Source: a virus | DNA: 64,000 nt | Reading direction: 5' to 3' (one strand) | Virus record (IMG/VR): IMGVR_UViG_3300025897_000012 | Span: 15,755 to 79,754 of that record | Part shown: positions 60,388 to 64,000 of the stretch, piece by piece | How the letters are laid out: every line of letters begins with the position of its first letter | Position numbering within the stretch: position 1 is the first letter of the stretch | Made by a program: the position numbers and the translations under genes | The notes under the pieces: generated by a model | The model's database searches: none | The model's input: the letters and a program-made list of their open reading frames with translations, nothing else | Told to the model about the DNA's origin: nothing

Positions 60388-61827
60388 ATGCGAGTTCTGG
60401 AAGTTATACAACCAAACAACGATAAACAGCAGTTAAATGAAATAGCTATTACTGGACTTTTGATAACAATAGCTGTTGGAGCTCTTGGTGCAGCAGCTAT
60501 TGAAGCTGGTATTGGATTAGTTAAAAATTGGGCTGACGATTGGGATATCAAAGGATTTAAGCCTACTGGCAATCATATTCCTGATCAAACACAAATTACA
60601 AAAGGTAAACAACGCTTTGTATATAATGCTAAGGAAGGCAAATGGGGCGTACAAGAAAGATCTAGACTAGGTAAATGGAAGTATAAAATGATTCCTGGTG
60701 TAGACGGCGCAAATCCAACTGCTAAAACAGTAGTTATTAGTGCTGAAGATTTAAAACAAGCTATTAAAAATAAAACATTAAGTTTTGGTAACAAAGCGGC
60801 TGTTGTAGACACTATGCAACGACAGTATATGGAAAAACAAATGAAAAGCGGAAAGCTACCCGCTGAAGTAAAAGCAGGCTTTGCTAAATCAGGTAACTTT
60901 CTTGATGATGTAATAAAAAGAGAAGAAGCTGGCGTAAGAAAAGGTGCAAGAGGAGTTTGGAACAGGATTAAAGCTGGAGGCACAAAGATCTTTAGTCGCA
61001 GAGTTTTTCAAGCAATTAATGTTTTTATGCCTGTTGCATTAGTTGTTAATACTGTAAGACTTAAAGCGTGGTATAAAACAAAATTAAACTGGGGCAAAGG
61101 AGATGGTTTAGGTACTAATCCTTTAGATACAGTTGATACGGGCGGAGTAGTAGGATATCCTCACCCATCTGGTGATCCTAATAAAGTCTATGGAAGATCT
61201 GAATACGATCAGGACATGATGAATCTAAGAACAACTACGGTTAACGCGGCAATTGCTTGGATGGCAGCTCAAGGTGTTAATGTTTTAGCAAGTGGAATAT
61301 TTTGGATATATGCACAACGCAAAGGTAAAATTATAGATAGAACACAAGATGGAAAAGTAATCTCCTTTTTAAAAAGATGGAATCCTTTAAAGCTCTTAAA
61401 AATGCCTGGAAAACTATTGAAGCTAGGAGCTGCTGGAGTTTCAGCAGGTTTAGTATACTCAGCGTTTGATAGAGCCTTTGCAGAAAAACTAGCTAATGCA
61501 ATGGCTGATTATATATTTAAATACGATGTGTTTTCACAAAAATATTCAACTGCTGAAGATATTACAGAGCATATGATAAAAGCATTAGGCGGCTCTGGAT
61601 ACGAACAGGCAATGGCCCAAATTGGTCTAGGAACAACAGGCGGTGACAAGTTAGCAAATCAAGACGGTAAGTTAGGTGGAGAGGTTAATCCTTTAGATAA
61701 TACTAGTCCAAGTGGAGAGGTTAATCCTTTAGATAATACTAGTCCAAGTAGCAGTAGCAGTGGTGGTGCTGCTTTAGATGCAATTAATAATCTTAGTAAG
61801 GATGATGATTTCTGGAAAATTAAATAA
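60388..61827 (+). CDS. Probable internal virion/ejection protein with hydrophobic helices
   Basis: Late promoter; MRVLEVI…QLNE N-terminus resembling prohead-protease-processed leaders; several hydrophobic A/G-rich segments. Confidence 0.55.
   Translation: MRVLEVIQPNNDKQQLNEIAITGLLITIAVGALGAAAIEAGIGLVKNWADDWDIKGFKPTGNHIPDQTQITKGKQRFVYNAKEGKWGVQERSRLGKWKYKMIPGVDGANPTAKTVVISAEDLKQAIKNKTLSFGNKAAVVDTMQRQYMEKQMKSGKLPAEVKAGFAKSGNFLDDVIKREEAGVRKGARGVWNRIKAGGTKIFSRRVFQAINVFMPVALVVNTVRLKAWYKTKLNWGKGDGLGTNPLDTVDTGGVVGYPHPSGDPNKVYGRSEYDQDMMNLRTTTVNAAIAWMAAQGVNVLASGIFWIYAQRKGKIIDRTQDGKVISFLKRWNPLKLLKMPGKLLKLGAAGVSAGLVYSAFDRAFAEKLANAMADYIFKYDVFSQKYSTAEDITEHMIKALGGSGYEQAMAQIGLGTTGGDKLANQDGKLGGEVNPLDNTSPSGEVNPLDNTSPSSSSSGGAALDAINNLSKDDDFWKIK
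61676..61749 (+). repeat. Perfect 36-nt tandem duplication (in frame, GEVNPLDNTSPS x2)
   Basis: GTGGAGAGGTTAATCCTTTAGATAATACTAGTCCAA at 61676-61711 and 61712-61747. Confidence 0.95.
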
Positions 61828-62059
61828 TTGGCATACCAGAGTCTTTAGCATTTTTAATATTTTCCATAACAATTTTATTCATTACTTCAAAATCTTCTAA
61901 GTCGGTATCATGCAATAAGGTATATGAATCTACACCTCCACGCATATACCAACATAACTGATAAACTTCGTGCTTAATATTTTTGATCTCATTTTCAAAA
62001 TCATCGGCTAATCCTTTGAGATCAGAATCCTTTGTTCTAATTAGCCTTGTACGAAAAAA
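61820..62059 (-). CDS. -1 frame extension of the gp26-like gene (gp51/gpGT-like part), no canonical start in its first 38 codons
   Basis: 79 open codons FFRTRLIRTKDSDLKGLADDFENEIKNIKHEVYQLCWYMRGGV…KDSGMPII*, entered at the slippery A-AAT-TTT-TTC. Confidence 0.7.
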   Translation of the reverse strand, partial: FFRTRLIRTKDSDLKGLADDFENEIKNIKHEVYQLCWYMRGGVDSYTLLHDTDLEDFEVMNKIVMENIKNAKDSGMPII

Positions 62060-62865
62060 TTTGAATAATCCAATTCAATATTCAATTTTGATTTATGACC
62101 ACAGTTAGCACAAGTAATGTCTGTCTCAGGAACAATAAACTGTTCATTATTACTCATAATAACTTGTTCAACTTTTATAAAAAAATCTTTATCAGCGTTT
62201 TCTATAAAATTAGCTATTTCGTTTAGATCAGTTTCTTCTTCGTTGTCAACTTCAATCTTTGCAATAGATGATATTACTGTATTTTTTCTTAATTCAGATA
62301 AAGCAGAATAAACTTTTTGTGTTTCTTCTCCTCTAATATTTTCATCTTCAATGTTTGGAATAGATTGCATTAATGCACGTTGGTGCTTAAAGTTTTGTTT
62401 GTTTATTTCATTTAACTCTTTAAAAGTTAAAGGGCGTAAATGAAACTTCATATTATCAACTACAAGACTTTCATTAAAGGTTCCCTTTGCAAAATGAGCT
62501 AATATGTTTTGAATATCTACTTCATAACTATTTTCTTCACTACATTCTGTACAAGTGTTGCTTGCACTTATATTAGCACCGTAACTAGCCATTCTGATTA
62601 CACTTAAAATTGTATAGATATCTATTAATGGAATTTGCCAAGGATCTTTTATACTTGGCACACAGTTTTTTATAATATTAACTGTTGTATTTCCGCTTAA
62701 TAAGGTATCAGGAGTTTTAGTTGCAATTTCATTACTAGCTGTCATACTAAAAACTTCTAAATCTTCAGTTTTAGCCAAAGATCCTTGACTATACCATTTT
62801 CCTTTACTAGGTAAGTCAATAGACTGCTTTGGTTGTCTCTGATATTTGGTTAATGGAGATGTCAT
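62041..62865 (-). CDS. Baseplate hub/tail assembly chaperone, T4 gp26-like
   Basis: IDLPSKG.WY, IRMASYG, two CxxC (CTEC, CANC), C-terminal NFF. Confidence 0.82.
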   Translation of the reverse strand: MTSPLTKYQRQPKQSIDLPSKGKWYSQGSLAKTEDLEVFSMTASNEIATKTPDTLLSGNTTVNIIKNCVPSIKDPWQIPLIDIYTILSVIRMASYGANISASNTCTECSEENSYEVDIQNILAHFAKGTFNESLVVDNMKFHLRPLTFKELNEINKQNFKHQRALMQSIPNIEDENIRGEETQKVYSALSELRKNTVISSIAKIEVDNEEETDLNEIANFIENADKDFFIKVEQVIMSNNEQFIVPETDITCANCGHKSKLNIELDYSNFFVQG

Positions 62866-62932: not shown

Positions 62933-64000
62933 ATGGCAGAAACCACAGACGCAGCCGCAAAGGCATTAAAAGAAACTAGTAGTTCCGCTCTAGGATTAGC
63001 TAAATCTCTTGCTTTAACCAAACCAAGTCTTACTGACTTTGCTTCTAAGATTCCCAAGGTTGGTAATTACTTAGGTGCTGTAGCCAAAGAACTTGAAAAT
63101 CAAGTTAGTCAATATCAAGTTTTAACTAAATCAGGAATAAATTTTAACGGCAATTTATCAGCAATGATAACTGCAAGTACTCAGGCAGGACTGAGTATTA
63201 AGGAAATGACTGGTCTAGTAGCTAGTAATAGCGAATTACTAGCAGGATTTGGCGGTAGTGTAGAAGCTGGAGCACAAGGATTCTTAAAGAATTTACAAGT
63301 AATGAATTCTGCCAACAACAAGTATGGCACACAACTTAGAAATATTGGCTTAACACACGAAGAAATTGGCGAAGCTATGATGCAGACCCAACGTATGGCC
63401 ATGATGTCAGGTAGACGAAATGCCGCTACTGACGCAGAAATACAACAGCGTACAGCAGAATACGCAAAAGATTTAGACTTATTATCAAAACTTACAGGTA
63501 AAAGCAATGATGCACTAAAGAAAGAGCAAGCCGCAATGCAAAGGCAAGGCGATTTTAGAGCTAAAACTATGGGCATGGAAGCAGATATGCAAAAATCTAT
63601 GCTTAATGCAGCCAGTGAAGCAGATGCTAGTGGTATTGGTGATCTATTTAAAGACATGATGATTAGAGGCTTTCCAAGTGGAGACCAAGCACAGTTAGCA
63701 GGTATGTTTAGTAACTCTATGGGTGTTATGAGGCAGATGAAAGCAGCACAAGATGCAGGTAACACAGCAGAATATGATAGATTAAAAGGAACACTTGCAG
63801 CAGCCGCAATCAAAGATAAGTCAGCTAACAAAGAAATAGCAATTCTTGGTAATACAAACTCAGCTAGTGCCGCAGTTGCCGAAGCATTTAGAAAAACTTC
63901 TGAGTCAATGATAGGAGTGCAAGCAGAGTACGAGCGTGGAGAAATTACATTAAGTGGACTACAAAAAGCAATACAAGATAGACGTATACAAGCTGCTAAG
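62933..64000 (+). CDS. Tape measure protein (5' part, runs off the window)
   Basis: Not in the ORF track. ATG 62933 MAETTDAAAKALKETSSSALGLAK…YQVLTKSGINFNG…; Ala/Gln/Lys-rich helical sequence, no stop seen to the window end, adjacent to the gp26-like gene. Confidence 0.8.
   Translation, partial: MAETTDAAAKALKETSSSALGLAKSLALTKPSLTDFASKIPKVGNYLGAVAKELENQVSQYQVLTKSGINFNGNLSAMITASTQAGLSIKEMTGLVASNSELLAGFGGSVEAGAQGFLKNLQVMNSANNKYGTQLRNIGLTHEEIGEAMMQTQRMAMMSGRRNAATDAEIQQRTAEYAKDLDLLSKLTGKSNDALKKEQAAMQRQGDFRAKTMGMEADMQKSMLNAASEADASGIGDLFKDMMIRGFPSGDQAQLAGMFSNSMGVMRQMKAAQDAGNTAEYDRLKGTLAAAAIKDKSANKEIAILGNTNSASAAVAEAFRKTSESMIGVQAEYERGEITLSGLQKAIQDRRIQAAK

What the first reader, a model, noticed from the sequence alone, without database searches (positions are those of the whole stretch)
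61820..62865. Hidden -1 programmed ribosomal frameshift in the gp26-like gene (lambda G/GT-style tail chaperone in a T4-like phage)
Seen: the gene ends TCA-AAT-TTT-TTC-GTA-CAA-GGC-TAA, containing two overlapping X-XXY-YYZ heptamers (A-AAT-TTT and T-TTT-TTC, 62062-62053). The -1 frame has a TGA five codons upstream, then stays open for 79 codons to TAA at 61822-61820 and exactly fills the gap to the convergent gene. It has no ATG/GTG/TTG until the Met inside LCWYMRGG, so the ORF track misses it. Known: long-tailed phages make gpG/gpGT tail chaperones by -1 frameshifting next to the tape-measure gene, whereas T4-like gp26 and gp51 are usually annotated as separate hub-assembly genes. Inference: a 274-aa protein and a fusion of about 348 aa are both made, the terminal NFF is the slippery site, and gp26/gp51-like genes are the G/GT equivalents. 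Here they are divergent from the tape-measure gene rather than upstream of it.
Basis: partly seen in the sequence, partly recalled or inferred. Interest (0 to 1): 0.8.

Follow-up and report, generated by a model that had tools for sequence, protein, structure and literature searches.

The report
Frameshift in phage baseplate-hub chaperone gene
One tail-baseplate assembly gene of this uncultured giant T4-related phage very probably makes a 274-residue and a 348-residue protein, because some ribosomes slip back one base on an invariant TTTTTTC; phage T4 appears to make the same short/long pair from two separate paralogous genes, 26 and 51.

Summary
The PF12322 (T4 gp26/gp51 family) gene at 62865..62041(-) ends AAT TTT TTC GTA CAA GGC TAA. 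The -1 frame is open for 84 codons, down to TAA at 61822-61820.

Comparative evidence makes a programmed -1 frameshift very likely. All 97 distinct related DNAs carry T TTT TTY at the same codon: IMG/VR and metagenome contigs, plus Atu_ph07, Phosso, PA5oct, 121Q, XacN1 and RsoM2USA. Synonymous positions there are frozen. A homologous -1 ORF of 71-77 codons follows, usually with no start codon of its own. A stem-loop begins 6 nt after the heptamer and shows compensatory changes.

About 20 natural in-frame long forms (319-351 aa) exist. Their junction lines up without gaps with the predicted product ...LDYSNFF|RTRLI...

T4 gp26 and gp51 both match PF12322. gp26 ends where the short form ends, and gp51 aligns colinearly with the long forms. 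Four complete frameshift-type phage genomes have one such gene; T4 has two.

The lambda G/GT comparison is an analogy of expression logic only. I found no homology, and the tape-measure identity of the neighbouring gene is weakly supported.

I found no paper reporting this signal. This scan has already noted it in at least 60 other genomes. No experiment has confirmed it.

The parts
62041..62865 (-). 0-frame ORF, 274 aa: the short form. It is a gp26-like baseplate-hub assembly protein with two CxxC pairs and the C-terminal motif LDYSNFF.
   Evidence: PF12322 at 57.9 bits against a cut-off of 24.5. phrog_150 at E 4e-20, matching profile positions 7-234 of 282. Invariant C105, C108, C252, C255, D266, S268, F270 and F271 in 26 homologues.
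62069..62071 (-). GGA, 10-12 nt upstream of the heptamer. It may be a weak Shine-Dalgarno-like upstream stimulator.
   Evidence: The Leu codon here is TTG or CTG in 55 of 71 Leu cases, against 22% G-ending Leu codons elsewhere in the same genes. GGA is present in 66 of 97 distinct loci. The function is inferred.
62053..62059 (-). Slippery heptamer T TTT TTC (X XXY YYZ in the 0 frame). Both tRNA-Phe can re-pair one base back.
   Evidence: Present at the same codon in 97 of 97 distinct related DNAs: T TTT TTC in 95 and T TTT TTT in 2. The wobble base before the run is T in 97 of 97. The second Phe codon is TTC in 95 of 97, although TTC makes up 19% of Phe codons in these genes.
62047..62052 (-). 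6-nt spacer between the heptamer and the stem.
   Evidence: The predicted stem starts exactly 6 nt after the heptamer in 27 of 71 folded loci, and 5-7 nt after it in most of the others that have the stem.
62006..62046 (-). Stem-loop: 5' arm GGCUAAU at 62046-62040, 3' arm AUUAGCC at 62012-62006. The 0-frame stop TAA (62043-62041) lies in the 5' arm.
   Evidence: Register A (24 sequences): 8 of 11 pairs show compensatory changes, 88.6% of cells are paired against at most 42% when the partner is slid, and 0 of 500 shuffles do as well. Register B (18 sequences): 4 of 12 pairs. In this window alone the stem is weak: -10.2 kcal/mol, z -0.43.
61820..62053 (-). -1-frame extension of 77 codons (RTRLIRTKDSDL...CWYMRGG...SGMPII) plus the TAA stop. 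Joined to residues 1-271 it gives the 348-aa long form.
   Evidence: The extension is 77 codons in 76 of 84 loci, and 71-77 in the rest apart from two cut by contig ends. The peptide is homologous across loci with invariant K27, W35, R38 and G39. After FF, the -1-frame residues R, x, R/S/K, L/I are conserved while the 0-frame residues are not. Natural in-frame long forms carry this domain at their C-terminus.

Best explanation
The gene at 62865..62041(-) encodes a baseplate-hub assembly protein of the T4 gp26/gp51 family and carries a programmed -1 ribosomal frameshift signal.

Most ribosomes read AAT TTT TTC GTA CAA GGC TAA and release the 274-aa short form.

A fraction of unknown size pauses with tRNA-Phe on UUU (P site) and UUC (A site), because the stem-loop begins 6 nt downstream. 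Both tRNAs slip back one base onto U UUU UU. Reading then continues with CGU ACA AGG CUA and onward for 77 codons. This yields a 348-aa long form, ...LDYSNFF-RTRLIRT...GMPII, with a helical C-terminal domain packed on the body.

One gene therefore supplies a fixed short-to-long ratio of two hub-assembly proteins. T4 appears to make the same pair from two paralogous genes, 26 (short) and 51 (long).

Shown by sequence comparison: the signal, the phase, the selection on the -1 peptide starting at the slip site, the covarying stem, and the colinear natural fusions.

Inferred: that the slip is ribosomal, how efficient it is, and that both forms are needed for hub and tape-measure assembly and then leave the virion.
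For: (2) 120 of 125 fetched loci carry the signal. The other 5 are cut by contig ends. There are 97 distinct DNAs, with hub-protein identity down to 26%.

(3) Synonymous sites are frozen. The wobble base before the run is T in 97 of 97, against a 62-78% background. The second Phe codon is TTC in 95 of 97, against a 19% background.

(4) The -1 ORF is 77 codons in 76 of 84 loci, and 71-77 in the rest apart from two cut by contig ends. The +1 frame closes within 0-30 codons. The first ATG is mostly the Met of WYMRGG.

(5) Residues encoded in the overlap are conserved in the -1 frame (entropy 0.54 and 0.51 bits for R and L), not in the 0 frame (2.3-3.3 bits).

(6) All 70 hub homologues found are 152-291 aa, with the full-length ones at 274-291. 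A profile of the extension finds about 20 proteins of 319-351 aa with the domain at their C-terminus. Their junction, for example LDFSNQF-RNKLIRM, is gap-free colinear with the predicted LDYSNFF-RTRLIRT. One of them hits Atu_ph07 in two frames across both ORFs.

(7) The stem-loop 6 nt downstream shows compensatory changes, for example stop TAA to TAG matched by synonymous Leu TTA to CTA.

(8) In E. coli, H_HH.U_UU.Y heptamers are among the most efficient, and U_UU.U_UU.C is used by IS elements (PMC4066793).

(9) T4 gp26 and gp51 both match PF12322 (E 9e-64 and 4e-52). On phrog_150, gp26 ends at profile position 235, the window's protein at 234, and gp51 runs to 280. The gp51 family aligns colinearly with the long forms at probability 87.5%, E 3.6e-6 (50.6% against the natural forms only).

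(10) PF12322 gene count: Atu_ph07 1, PA5oct 1, 121Q 1, XacN1 1, T4 2.

(11) The AF2 model of a natural long form is a single compact body (pLDDT 89.7, pTM 0.86).
Against: - There is no experimental evidence here or in any paper I found: no junction peptide, no reporter assay, no ribosome profiling.
- The window's own stem is not significant by energy (z -0.43). I picked the two registers by eye, which inflates the percentage paired. About a third of loci show no obvious stem at the canonical spacing.
- FF is conserved as protein even in T4 gp26 (TTC TTT, no slip signal), so part of the motif's conservation is a protein constraint.
- In 121Q an ATG overlaps the stop (TAATG), so separate initiation is possible there.
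- Homology between the extension alone and the gp51 tail is weak (tails alone 26%).
- I could not fetch the DNA of the in-frame long forms.
Confidence: 0.87

Rival explanations
1. Transcriptional slippage. RNA polymerase stutters on the T6 run and adds one U to a fraction of mRNAs. Ordinary translation of those mRNAs gives the same 348-aa protein.
For: The product would be identical. The run is homopolymeric. RsoM2USA has T9 and XacN1 has T7 at this site. Long U and A runs are known slippage sites (PMC5009743 and PMC4066793).
Against: Six T is shorter than the runs that usually give appreciable slippage. 95 of 97 lineages keep exactly T6C rather than lengthening the run. A covarying stem at the 6-nt spacing typical of ribosomal -1 signals has no role in this model.
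Confidence: 0.07
2. Two separate genes. The downstream ORF is translated on its own, by an unusual start codon or by termination-reinitiation, as a small protein of about 70 aa (a mini-gp51).
For: Databases annotate it this way: 121Q gene 595, Atu_ph07 gp687, Phosso 319, XacN1 ORF316. 121Q has ATG within TAATG. Gene callers produce many 41-98-aa ORFs from this region.
Against: No start codon is conserved in position. The first ATG is usually 36 codons in, which would remove the conserved RxRL...IK region. The -1-frame residues encoded upstream of the 0-frame stop are conserved. Natural in-frame fusions show the domain belongs to the same polypeptide. The frozen synonymous sites of the heptamer would be unexplained.
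Confidence: 0.04
3. No recoding. The open -1 frame and the T run are by-products of AT-rich composition and a conserved Phe-Phe, or the gene is a decayed fusion.
For: The window is 33% GC. FF is a protein motif that T4 gp26 also has.
Against: No other -1-frame stretch inside the window's long ORFs reaches 84 codons. Phase, length and peptide are conserved in 97 distinct DNAs spanning lineages with 26-30% hub-protein identity.
Confidence: 0.02

Closest known systems
Phage T4 gp26 (208 aa) and gp51 (249 aa), listed as 'hub assembly chaperones' (Leiman et al. 2010, PMC3004832, Table 2)
   Same: Same protein family: all three match PF12322 and phrog_150. T4 gp26 ends 3 residues after a conserved FF (..KEFFELL*), as the window's short form does (..SNFFVQG*). 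gp51 carries an extra C-terminal tail and aligns colinearly with the long forms.
   Different: T4 uses two genes and has no slip signal (GAG TTC TTT GAG). Here one gene plus a -1 frameshift would give both forms. The window's proteins are larger (274 and 348 aa). The tail is only weakly similar to the gp51 tail when the two are compared alone.
Lambda gpG/gpGT and the conserved -1 frameshift of tail assembly chaperone genes in long-tailed phages (Xu, Hendrix & Duda 2004; reviewed in PMC5009743)
   Same: A -1 slip on an X XXY YYZ heptamer near the 3' end of a tail-assembly gene gives a short and a C-terminally extended protein in a fixed ratio. The family concerned (T4 gp26/gp51) is described as chaperones that are not in the virion.
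   Different: I found no sequence or fold similarity to known chaperone families. The gene does not lie between tube and tape-measure genes. The slippery sequence is U UUU UUC, not G GGA AAG. Binding to the tape measure or the tube is untested. The review names T4 as the exception to this frameshift.
E. coli dnaX and IS3/IS911-type -1 frameshift signals
   Same: The signal may have three parts: an upstream SD-like element (here only GGA, 10-12 nt upstream), a heptamer, and a downstream stem-loop 5-8 nt away. U_UU.U_UU.C is among the heptamers used by IS elements (PMC4066793).
   Different: The upstream element is a 3-nt core inferred only from codon bias. In dnaX the shifted frame ends early, giving a shorter product; here the shift extends the protein.

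Membership tests
Pfam PF12322 T4_baseplate (T4 gp26/gp51 family) / phrog_150 | Score above the curated cut-off of the family HMM | tested here: met
   57.9 bits against a 24.5 cut-off, residues 43-271. phrog_150 at E 4.2e-20. T4 gp26 and gp51 score 215.6 and 177.5 bits.
Pfam PF12322 T4_baseplate (T4 gp26/gp51 family) / phrog_150 | Two conserved Cys pairs (CxxC ... CxxC) and a C-terminal aromatic FF motif | tested here: met
   C105, C108, C252, C255, F270 and F271 are invariant in 26 homologues. T4 gp26 has C..C, CPEC and FF.
Canonical -1 programmed ribosomal frameshift cassette | X XXY YYZ heptamer in the 0 frame, conserved in homologues | tested here: met
   T TTT TTC at 62059-62053. 97 of 97 distinct related DNAs have T TTT TTY at the same codon.
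Canonical -1 programmed ribosomal frameshift cassette | Long -1 ORF that starts at the site, has no start codon of its own, and keeps its phase and peptide in homologues | tested here: met
   77 codons in 76 of 84 loci. The -1 frame is open for a median of 6-8 codons upstream of the site. The first ATG is mostly at codon 36. The peptide is conserved from the first residue after the slip.
Canonical -1 programmed ribosomal frameshift cassette | Downstream RNA structure 5-9 nt from the heptamer | tested here: met
   A stem starts 6 nt downstream. Compensatory changes occur in 8 of 11 pairs (24 sequences) and 4 of 12 pairs (18 sequences). Caveats: I chose the registers by eye, the window's own stem has z -0.43, and about a third of loci lack an obvious stem.
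Canonical -1 programmed ribosomal frameshift cassette | Trans-frame protein detected, or frameshifting measured | not testable with these tools
Lambda G/GT-type tail assembly chaperones | Short and frameshift-extended products from one tail-assembly gene | tested here: met
   As above; predicted products are 274 and 348 aa.
Lambda G/GT-type tail assembly chaperones | Gene located between the major tail (tube) gene and the tape-measure gene, same strand | tested here: not met
   The gene is divergent from its neighbour 62933..64000(+) and convergent with 60388..61827(+). That the neighbour is a tape measure rests only on a weak Atlas lead: 0.92-0.94 with few shared features. In PA5oct and 121Q the neighbour is a 'virion structural protein' next to the portal gene.
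Lambda G/GT-type tail assembly chaperones | Sequence or fold similarity to known tail assembly chaperone families | tested here: inconclusive
   No Pfam or PHROG chaperone family matched. Foldseek against the PDB gave nothing at E<=1e-3. VIA-align gave only helical-hairpin matches with Z<=8. BFVD hits are all T4-type baseplate-hub proteins.
Lambda G/GT-type tail assembly chaperones | Products bind the tape measure and tube proteins and are absent from virions | not testable with these tools
   One hint only: in the PA5oct record the neighbouring structural protein and the portal carry an 'ESI-MS/MS' note, and the hub gene gp336 does not.
T4 gp51 (long paralogue) | The C-terminal tail beyond the gp26 end is homologous to the -1 extension | tested here: inconclusive
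   Full-length profile comparisons run colinearly to both C-termini (probability 50.6%, 87.5%). The natural long form extends 20 positions into the gp51-only part of phrog_150. The extension alone against gp51 gives nothing. Tails alone give 26%.

The most novel reading that the evidence does not exclude
The gp26/gp51 family is the missing counterpart of the G/GT tail-assembly chaperones in T4-like and giant myophages. It is not homologous to G/GT. A short and a long form, in a set ratio, would chaperone the hub and tape-measure complex. The ratio would be fixed by a -1 frameshift in most lineages (the ancestral state). In T4 proper, gene duplication would have replaced the frameshift, which would explain why reviews list T4 as the one exception.
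Probability: 0.35. Interest if true: 0.8.

Novelty: new variant of a known kind. Interest (0 to 1): 0.7.

Why it matters
[quoted passage not shown] This signal puts a strictly conserved -1 frameshift into the T4-type hub-assembly gene family, across giant phages that include cultivable ones: 121Q, PBECO4, PA5oct, Atu_ph07 and XacN1.

- It gives a testable reason why T4 has two essential paralogues, 26 and 51, whose roles have been unclear for decades.
- It corrects the annotation of many genomes, where the downstream part is listed as a separate hypothetical gene or missed.
- It adds a clean natural U UUU UUC plus stem-loop signal for studying bacterial frameshifting.
- The experiments are easy in E. 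coli and Pseudomonas phages.

Tried and rejected
- blastn of the region against isolated phages: no match. Only protein-level searches worked.
- Extension peptide against Pfam and PHROGs: nothing usable. Against PDB sequences: only coiled-coil noise. Against T4 gp51 as a single sequence or as a family profile: nothing.
- HMM of the long forms against T4 gp26 and gp51: only weak N-terminal matches.
- RNAalifold on all 74 aligned sites: empty consensus, because the 3' arm sits in different registers. I then split the sites into two registers by eye.
- The window's stem alone: not significant.
- Rfam: no family.
- H-type pseudoknot: perfect loop-to-downstream complementarity of 6 nt or more in 22 loci against 9.9 expected. 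This is too weak to claim.
Scans of viral and metagenome contigs with P0151 returned only more frameshift-type loci. So I could not check whether those lineages also carry a separate short paralogue.
- Fold searches for a tail-assembly-chaperone-like fold: none found.
- The -1 fusion protein of the window could not be handed to the fold server by reference, so I folded a natural long form instead.
- Literature searches for a prior report: none found. Subscription journals are not covered.
Full report
**Observation**

The minus strand carries a 274-aa ORF at 62865..62041 that ends TCA AAT TTT TTC GTA CAA GGC TAA. In the -1 frame a TGA lies at 62077-62075. The frame is then open for 84 codons, to the TAA at 61822-61820. 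The ORF ends 8 nt inside the convergent gene 60388..61827. Its first ATG is the Met of LCWYMRGG.

The window is 33% GC, so 84 open codons have P of about 2e-3. None of 2440 -1-frame stop-to-stop stretches inside the window's long ORFs exceeds 75 codons.

The conserved heptamer is T TTT TTC at 62059-62053.

**What the gene is**

The ORF matches Pfam PF12322 (T4_baseplate) at 57.9 bits against a cut-off of 24.5. It also matches phrog_150 'baseplate hub'.

The surroundings are a T4-type baseplate and replication neighbourhood: a gp6 wedge, a gp25-like protein, a PAAR protein, a gp5-like spike, a gp55-like late sigma factor, and gp46/47-like nucleases.

The record is a 79,754-bp IMG/VR fragment estimated to be 22% complete, which implies a giant phage.

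The nearest isolated relatives are all giant myophages, at 26-30% protein identity: Atu_ph07, Phosso, PA5oct, the Rak2/121Q group, XacN1 and RsoM2USA.

**Comparative test of the frameshift**

I collected 125 related loci from IMG/VR, metagenomes and isolated phages. 120 carry the full signal. The other five are cut by contig ends. Among the 97 distinct DNAs:

- The heptamer is T TTT TTC in 95 and T TTT TTT in 2.
- The codon before the run is AAT, GAT, AGT, ACT, CAT, GGT, GCT or GTT. Its last base is always T, although these genes use the C-ending synonym 22-38% of the time.
- The second Phe codon is TTC in 95 of 97, although TTC makes up only 19% of Phe codons in the same genes.
- The 0-frame stop follows after 3 codons in 74 cases, and after 1-12 in the rest.

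The -1 ORF after the slip point is 77 codons in 76 of 84 loci, and 71-77 in the rest apart from two cut by contig ends. The +1 frame closes within 0-30 codons. The -1 peptides are clearly homologous (RxRL...IK...SWYMRGGV...ENIExTKxxGMPLI), with invariant K27, W35, R38 and G39.

The first ATG is usually codon 36, and no start codon is conserved in position.

In the short overlap between the heptamer and the 0-frame stop, the -1-frame residues are conserved: R in 89 of 97 and L/I in 97 of 97, with entropy near 0.5 bit. The 0-frame residues are not conserved (2.3-3.3 bits). Selection therefore acts on the -1 reading from the slip site itself. This argues against separate initiation downstream.

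**Natural fusions**

All 70 homologues of the 0-frame protein found in the 5.8-billion-protein search are 152-291 aa; the full-length ones are 274-291 aa.

A profile of the extension, searched against 1.84 billion representatives, found 339 proteins. Most are 41-98-aa ORFs that gene callers started at internal codons. About 20 are 319-351 aa and carry the domain at their C-terminus.

These are divergent gp26-like proteins from independent sources (Logan, ENA, JGI; contigs up to 90 kb). They have no FF pair at the junction, so they are not homopolymer sequencing errors. Their junctions read LDFSNQF-RNKLIRM, LDLDFCNLF-RAKLV, and so on. These align without a gap to the product predicted for the window, LDYSNFF-RTRLIRT.

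One of them (P0151) hits Atu_ph07 by tblastn in two pieces, spanning the hub gene and the downstream ORF in the other frame.

This shows that the extension is a C-terminal domain of the same polypeptide. It also shows that a -1 shift on TTT TTC restores the homologous register exactly.

**RNA signal**

In most loci a stem-loop starts 6 nt after the heptamer. Across 71 distinct sequences the mean z-score is -2.2 against dinucleotide shuffles. The 3' arm lies in at least two registers, so a global RNAalifold consensus was empty.

Within register A (24 sequences, including the window), 8 of 11 pairs have compensatory changes. 88.6% of cells pair, against at most 42% when the partner is slid, and 0 of 500 shuffles reach the covariation score. 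For example, a change of the 0-frame stop from TAA to TAG is matched by a synonymous Leu change from TTA to CTA in the 3' arm.

Register B (18 sequences) has GCC...GGC in place of GGC...GCC and 4 of 12 compensatory pairs.

Caveats:
- I sorted the registers by eye.
- The window's own stem (62046-62040 with 62012-62006) gives only -10.2 kcal/mol, z -0.43.
- About a third of loci show no obvious stem at the canonical spacing.

Upstream, the Leu codon four codons before the run is TTG or CTG in 55 of 71 Leu cases, against a 22% background. This creates GGA 10-12 nt before the heptamer in 66 of 97 loci. It may be a weak SD-like stimulator of the kind known from dnaX and IS elements; that is my inference.

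U_UU.U_UU.C belongs to the H_HH.U_UU.Y class. That class is among the most efficient -1 heptamers in E. coli and is used by IS elements (PMC4066793).

**Relation to T4**

My first comparison of the extension with T4 gp51 was negative. Notes from earlier windows of this scan claim that T4 genes 26 and 51 are a short/long paralogue pair. I tested that claim here.

- Both T4 proteins match PF12322 (E 9e-64 and 4e-52).
- On phrog_150 (282 positions), gp26 ends at position 235, the window's short form at 234, gp51 runs to 280, and the natural long form P0151 to 255.
- T4 gp26 ends ..KEFFELL*, three residues after a conserved FF. The window's short form ends the same way (..NFFVQG*). The T4 codons are TTC TTT and gene 25 follows directly, so T4 has no slip signal.
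- A 24-member gp51 family profile aligns colinearly to both C-termini of the natural long forms (probability 50.6%, E 1.6e-4).
- It does the same with a profile of 114 long forms, made of 95 conceptual and 19 natural sequences (probability 87.5%, E 3.6e-6).
- The tails alone reach only 26%. The extension alone gives nothing.
- Complete genomes of four frameshift-type phages have one PF12322 gene each. T4 has two.

The reading 'one gene plus frameshift here, two genes in T4' is therefore well supported in topology and moderately supported in sequence.

**Structure**

AlphaFold2 on a natural long form, using 19 sequences, gave pLDDT 89.7 and pTM 0.86. The model is one compact alpha/beta body. 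The extension forms helices 257-266, 270-297, 304-307 and 312-332.

No solved structure resembles it:
- Foldseek against the PDB found nothing at E<=1e-3.
- VIA-align found only helical-hairpin matches with Z<=8.
- No PDB sequence relative exists.

Among predicted viral structures, it matches T4-type 'baseplate hub (assembly)' proteins of many myophages, including Aeromonas phage 25 gp26 and Acinetobacter ZZ1 gp51.

**The G/GT comparison**

The expression logic is the same as in lambda G/GT: a -1 slip near the 3' end of a tail-assembly gene gives a short and an extended product. T4 gp26 and gp51 are listed as hub assembly chaperones (PMC3004832).

I found no homology to chaperone families, and the gene order differs.

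The divergent neighbour at 62933..64000 resembles tape-measure clusters only by a weak language-model lead. It also has a faint match to the 121Q 'virion structural protein' family.

So the gene works like G/GT in how the two forms are made. It is not shown to be a member of that family, and its partners are unknown.

A major review says the G-T frameshift is conserved in long-tailed phages 'except T4' (PMC5009743). That statement is what makes this signal interesting.

**Prior knowledge**

Full-text searches found no paper that reports a frameshift in gp26, gp51 or baseplate-hub genes. The PA5oct omics paper does not mention one.

Database records annotate the downstream part as separate hypothetical genes, or leave it out.

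Within this scan, the same signal has already been noted in at least 60 other genomes and confirmed by follow-up agents. This window is a further instance, of the 274/350-aa giant-phage type, not a first sighting.

**Verdict**

A real, conserved, programmed -1 frameshift is very likely (about 0.87). The remaining probability goes mainly to transcriptional slippage, which would give the same protein, and to separate initiation of the downstream ORF.

The efficiency of the shift and the function of the two forms remain to be measured.

Noticed in passing
window 62069-62071 (-); 66 of 97 related loci: Synonymous bias creates GGA 10-12 nt upstream of the heptamer. The Leu codon there is TTG or CTG in 55 of 71 Leu cases, against 22% G-ending Leu codons elsewhere in the same genes. 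It may be an SD-like upstream stimulator, as in dnaX and IS elements.
   Followed up: partly
window 62018-62024 (loop, UGAUCUC) and 61984-61990 (GAGAUCA), minus strand: A 7-nt complementarity between the stem's loop and sequence 15 nt past the stem could form an H-type pseudoknot. Across loci, perfect loop-to-downstream matches of 6 nt or more occur in 22 against 9.9 expected, so support is weak.
   Followed up: partly
P0099, P0105, P0114, P0122, P0126, P0132, P0137, P0138, P0140, P0144, P0146, P0151 and others: A divergent lineage encodes the long form in one frame (319-351 aa) with no FF or T-run at the junction. I could not tell whether these phages also have a separate short paralogue, as T4 does, because their DNA could not be fetched.
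   Followed up: partly
L124 (XacN1) 1971-1977; L125 (RsoM2USA) 1973-1983: Two isolated phages have longer T runs at the site: GCT TTT TTT ATT (T7) and GTT TTT TTT TCC (T9). In XacN1 the 0 frame runs 10 more codons. T9 could also allow polymerase slippage.
   Followed up: partly
L003 3325-3534 (121Q gene 595); L001 3427-3549 (Atu_ph07 gp687); L123 2022-2252 (Phosso 319); L124 2034-2216 (XacN1 ORF316); PA5oct and RsoM2USA unannotated: Public records list the -1 extension as a separate small hypothetical gene, started at varying internal codons, or leave it unannotated. These are probably annotation errors.
   Followed up: yes
window 60388-61827 (+): The convergent 479-aa protein has no family match. 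It ends in a tandem duplication (GEVNPLDNTSPS twice) followed by a poly-Ser/Gly tail, and its stop overlaps the end of the -1 ORF by 8 nt.
   Followed up: no
window 62933-64000 (+), cut by the end of the record: The divergent neighbour has faint similarity to the 121Q 'virion structural protein' family phrog_14121 (E 4e-6). A language-model search points weakly to tape-measure clusters (PF06791, PF10145). In 121Q and PA5oct the corresponding gene lies next to the portal gene.
   Followed up: partly
T4 gp51 homologues P0226-P0317: The precomputed annotations give gp51 homologues a second Pfam family, PF28602, beside PF12322. It is absent from the local Pfam copy and from the window's short-form homologues. 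It is probably a model of the gp51-specific tail and worth comparing with the -1 extension.
   Followed up: no
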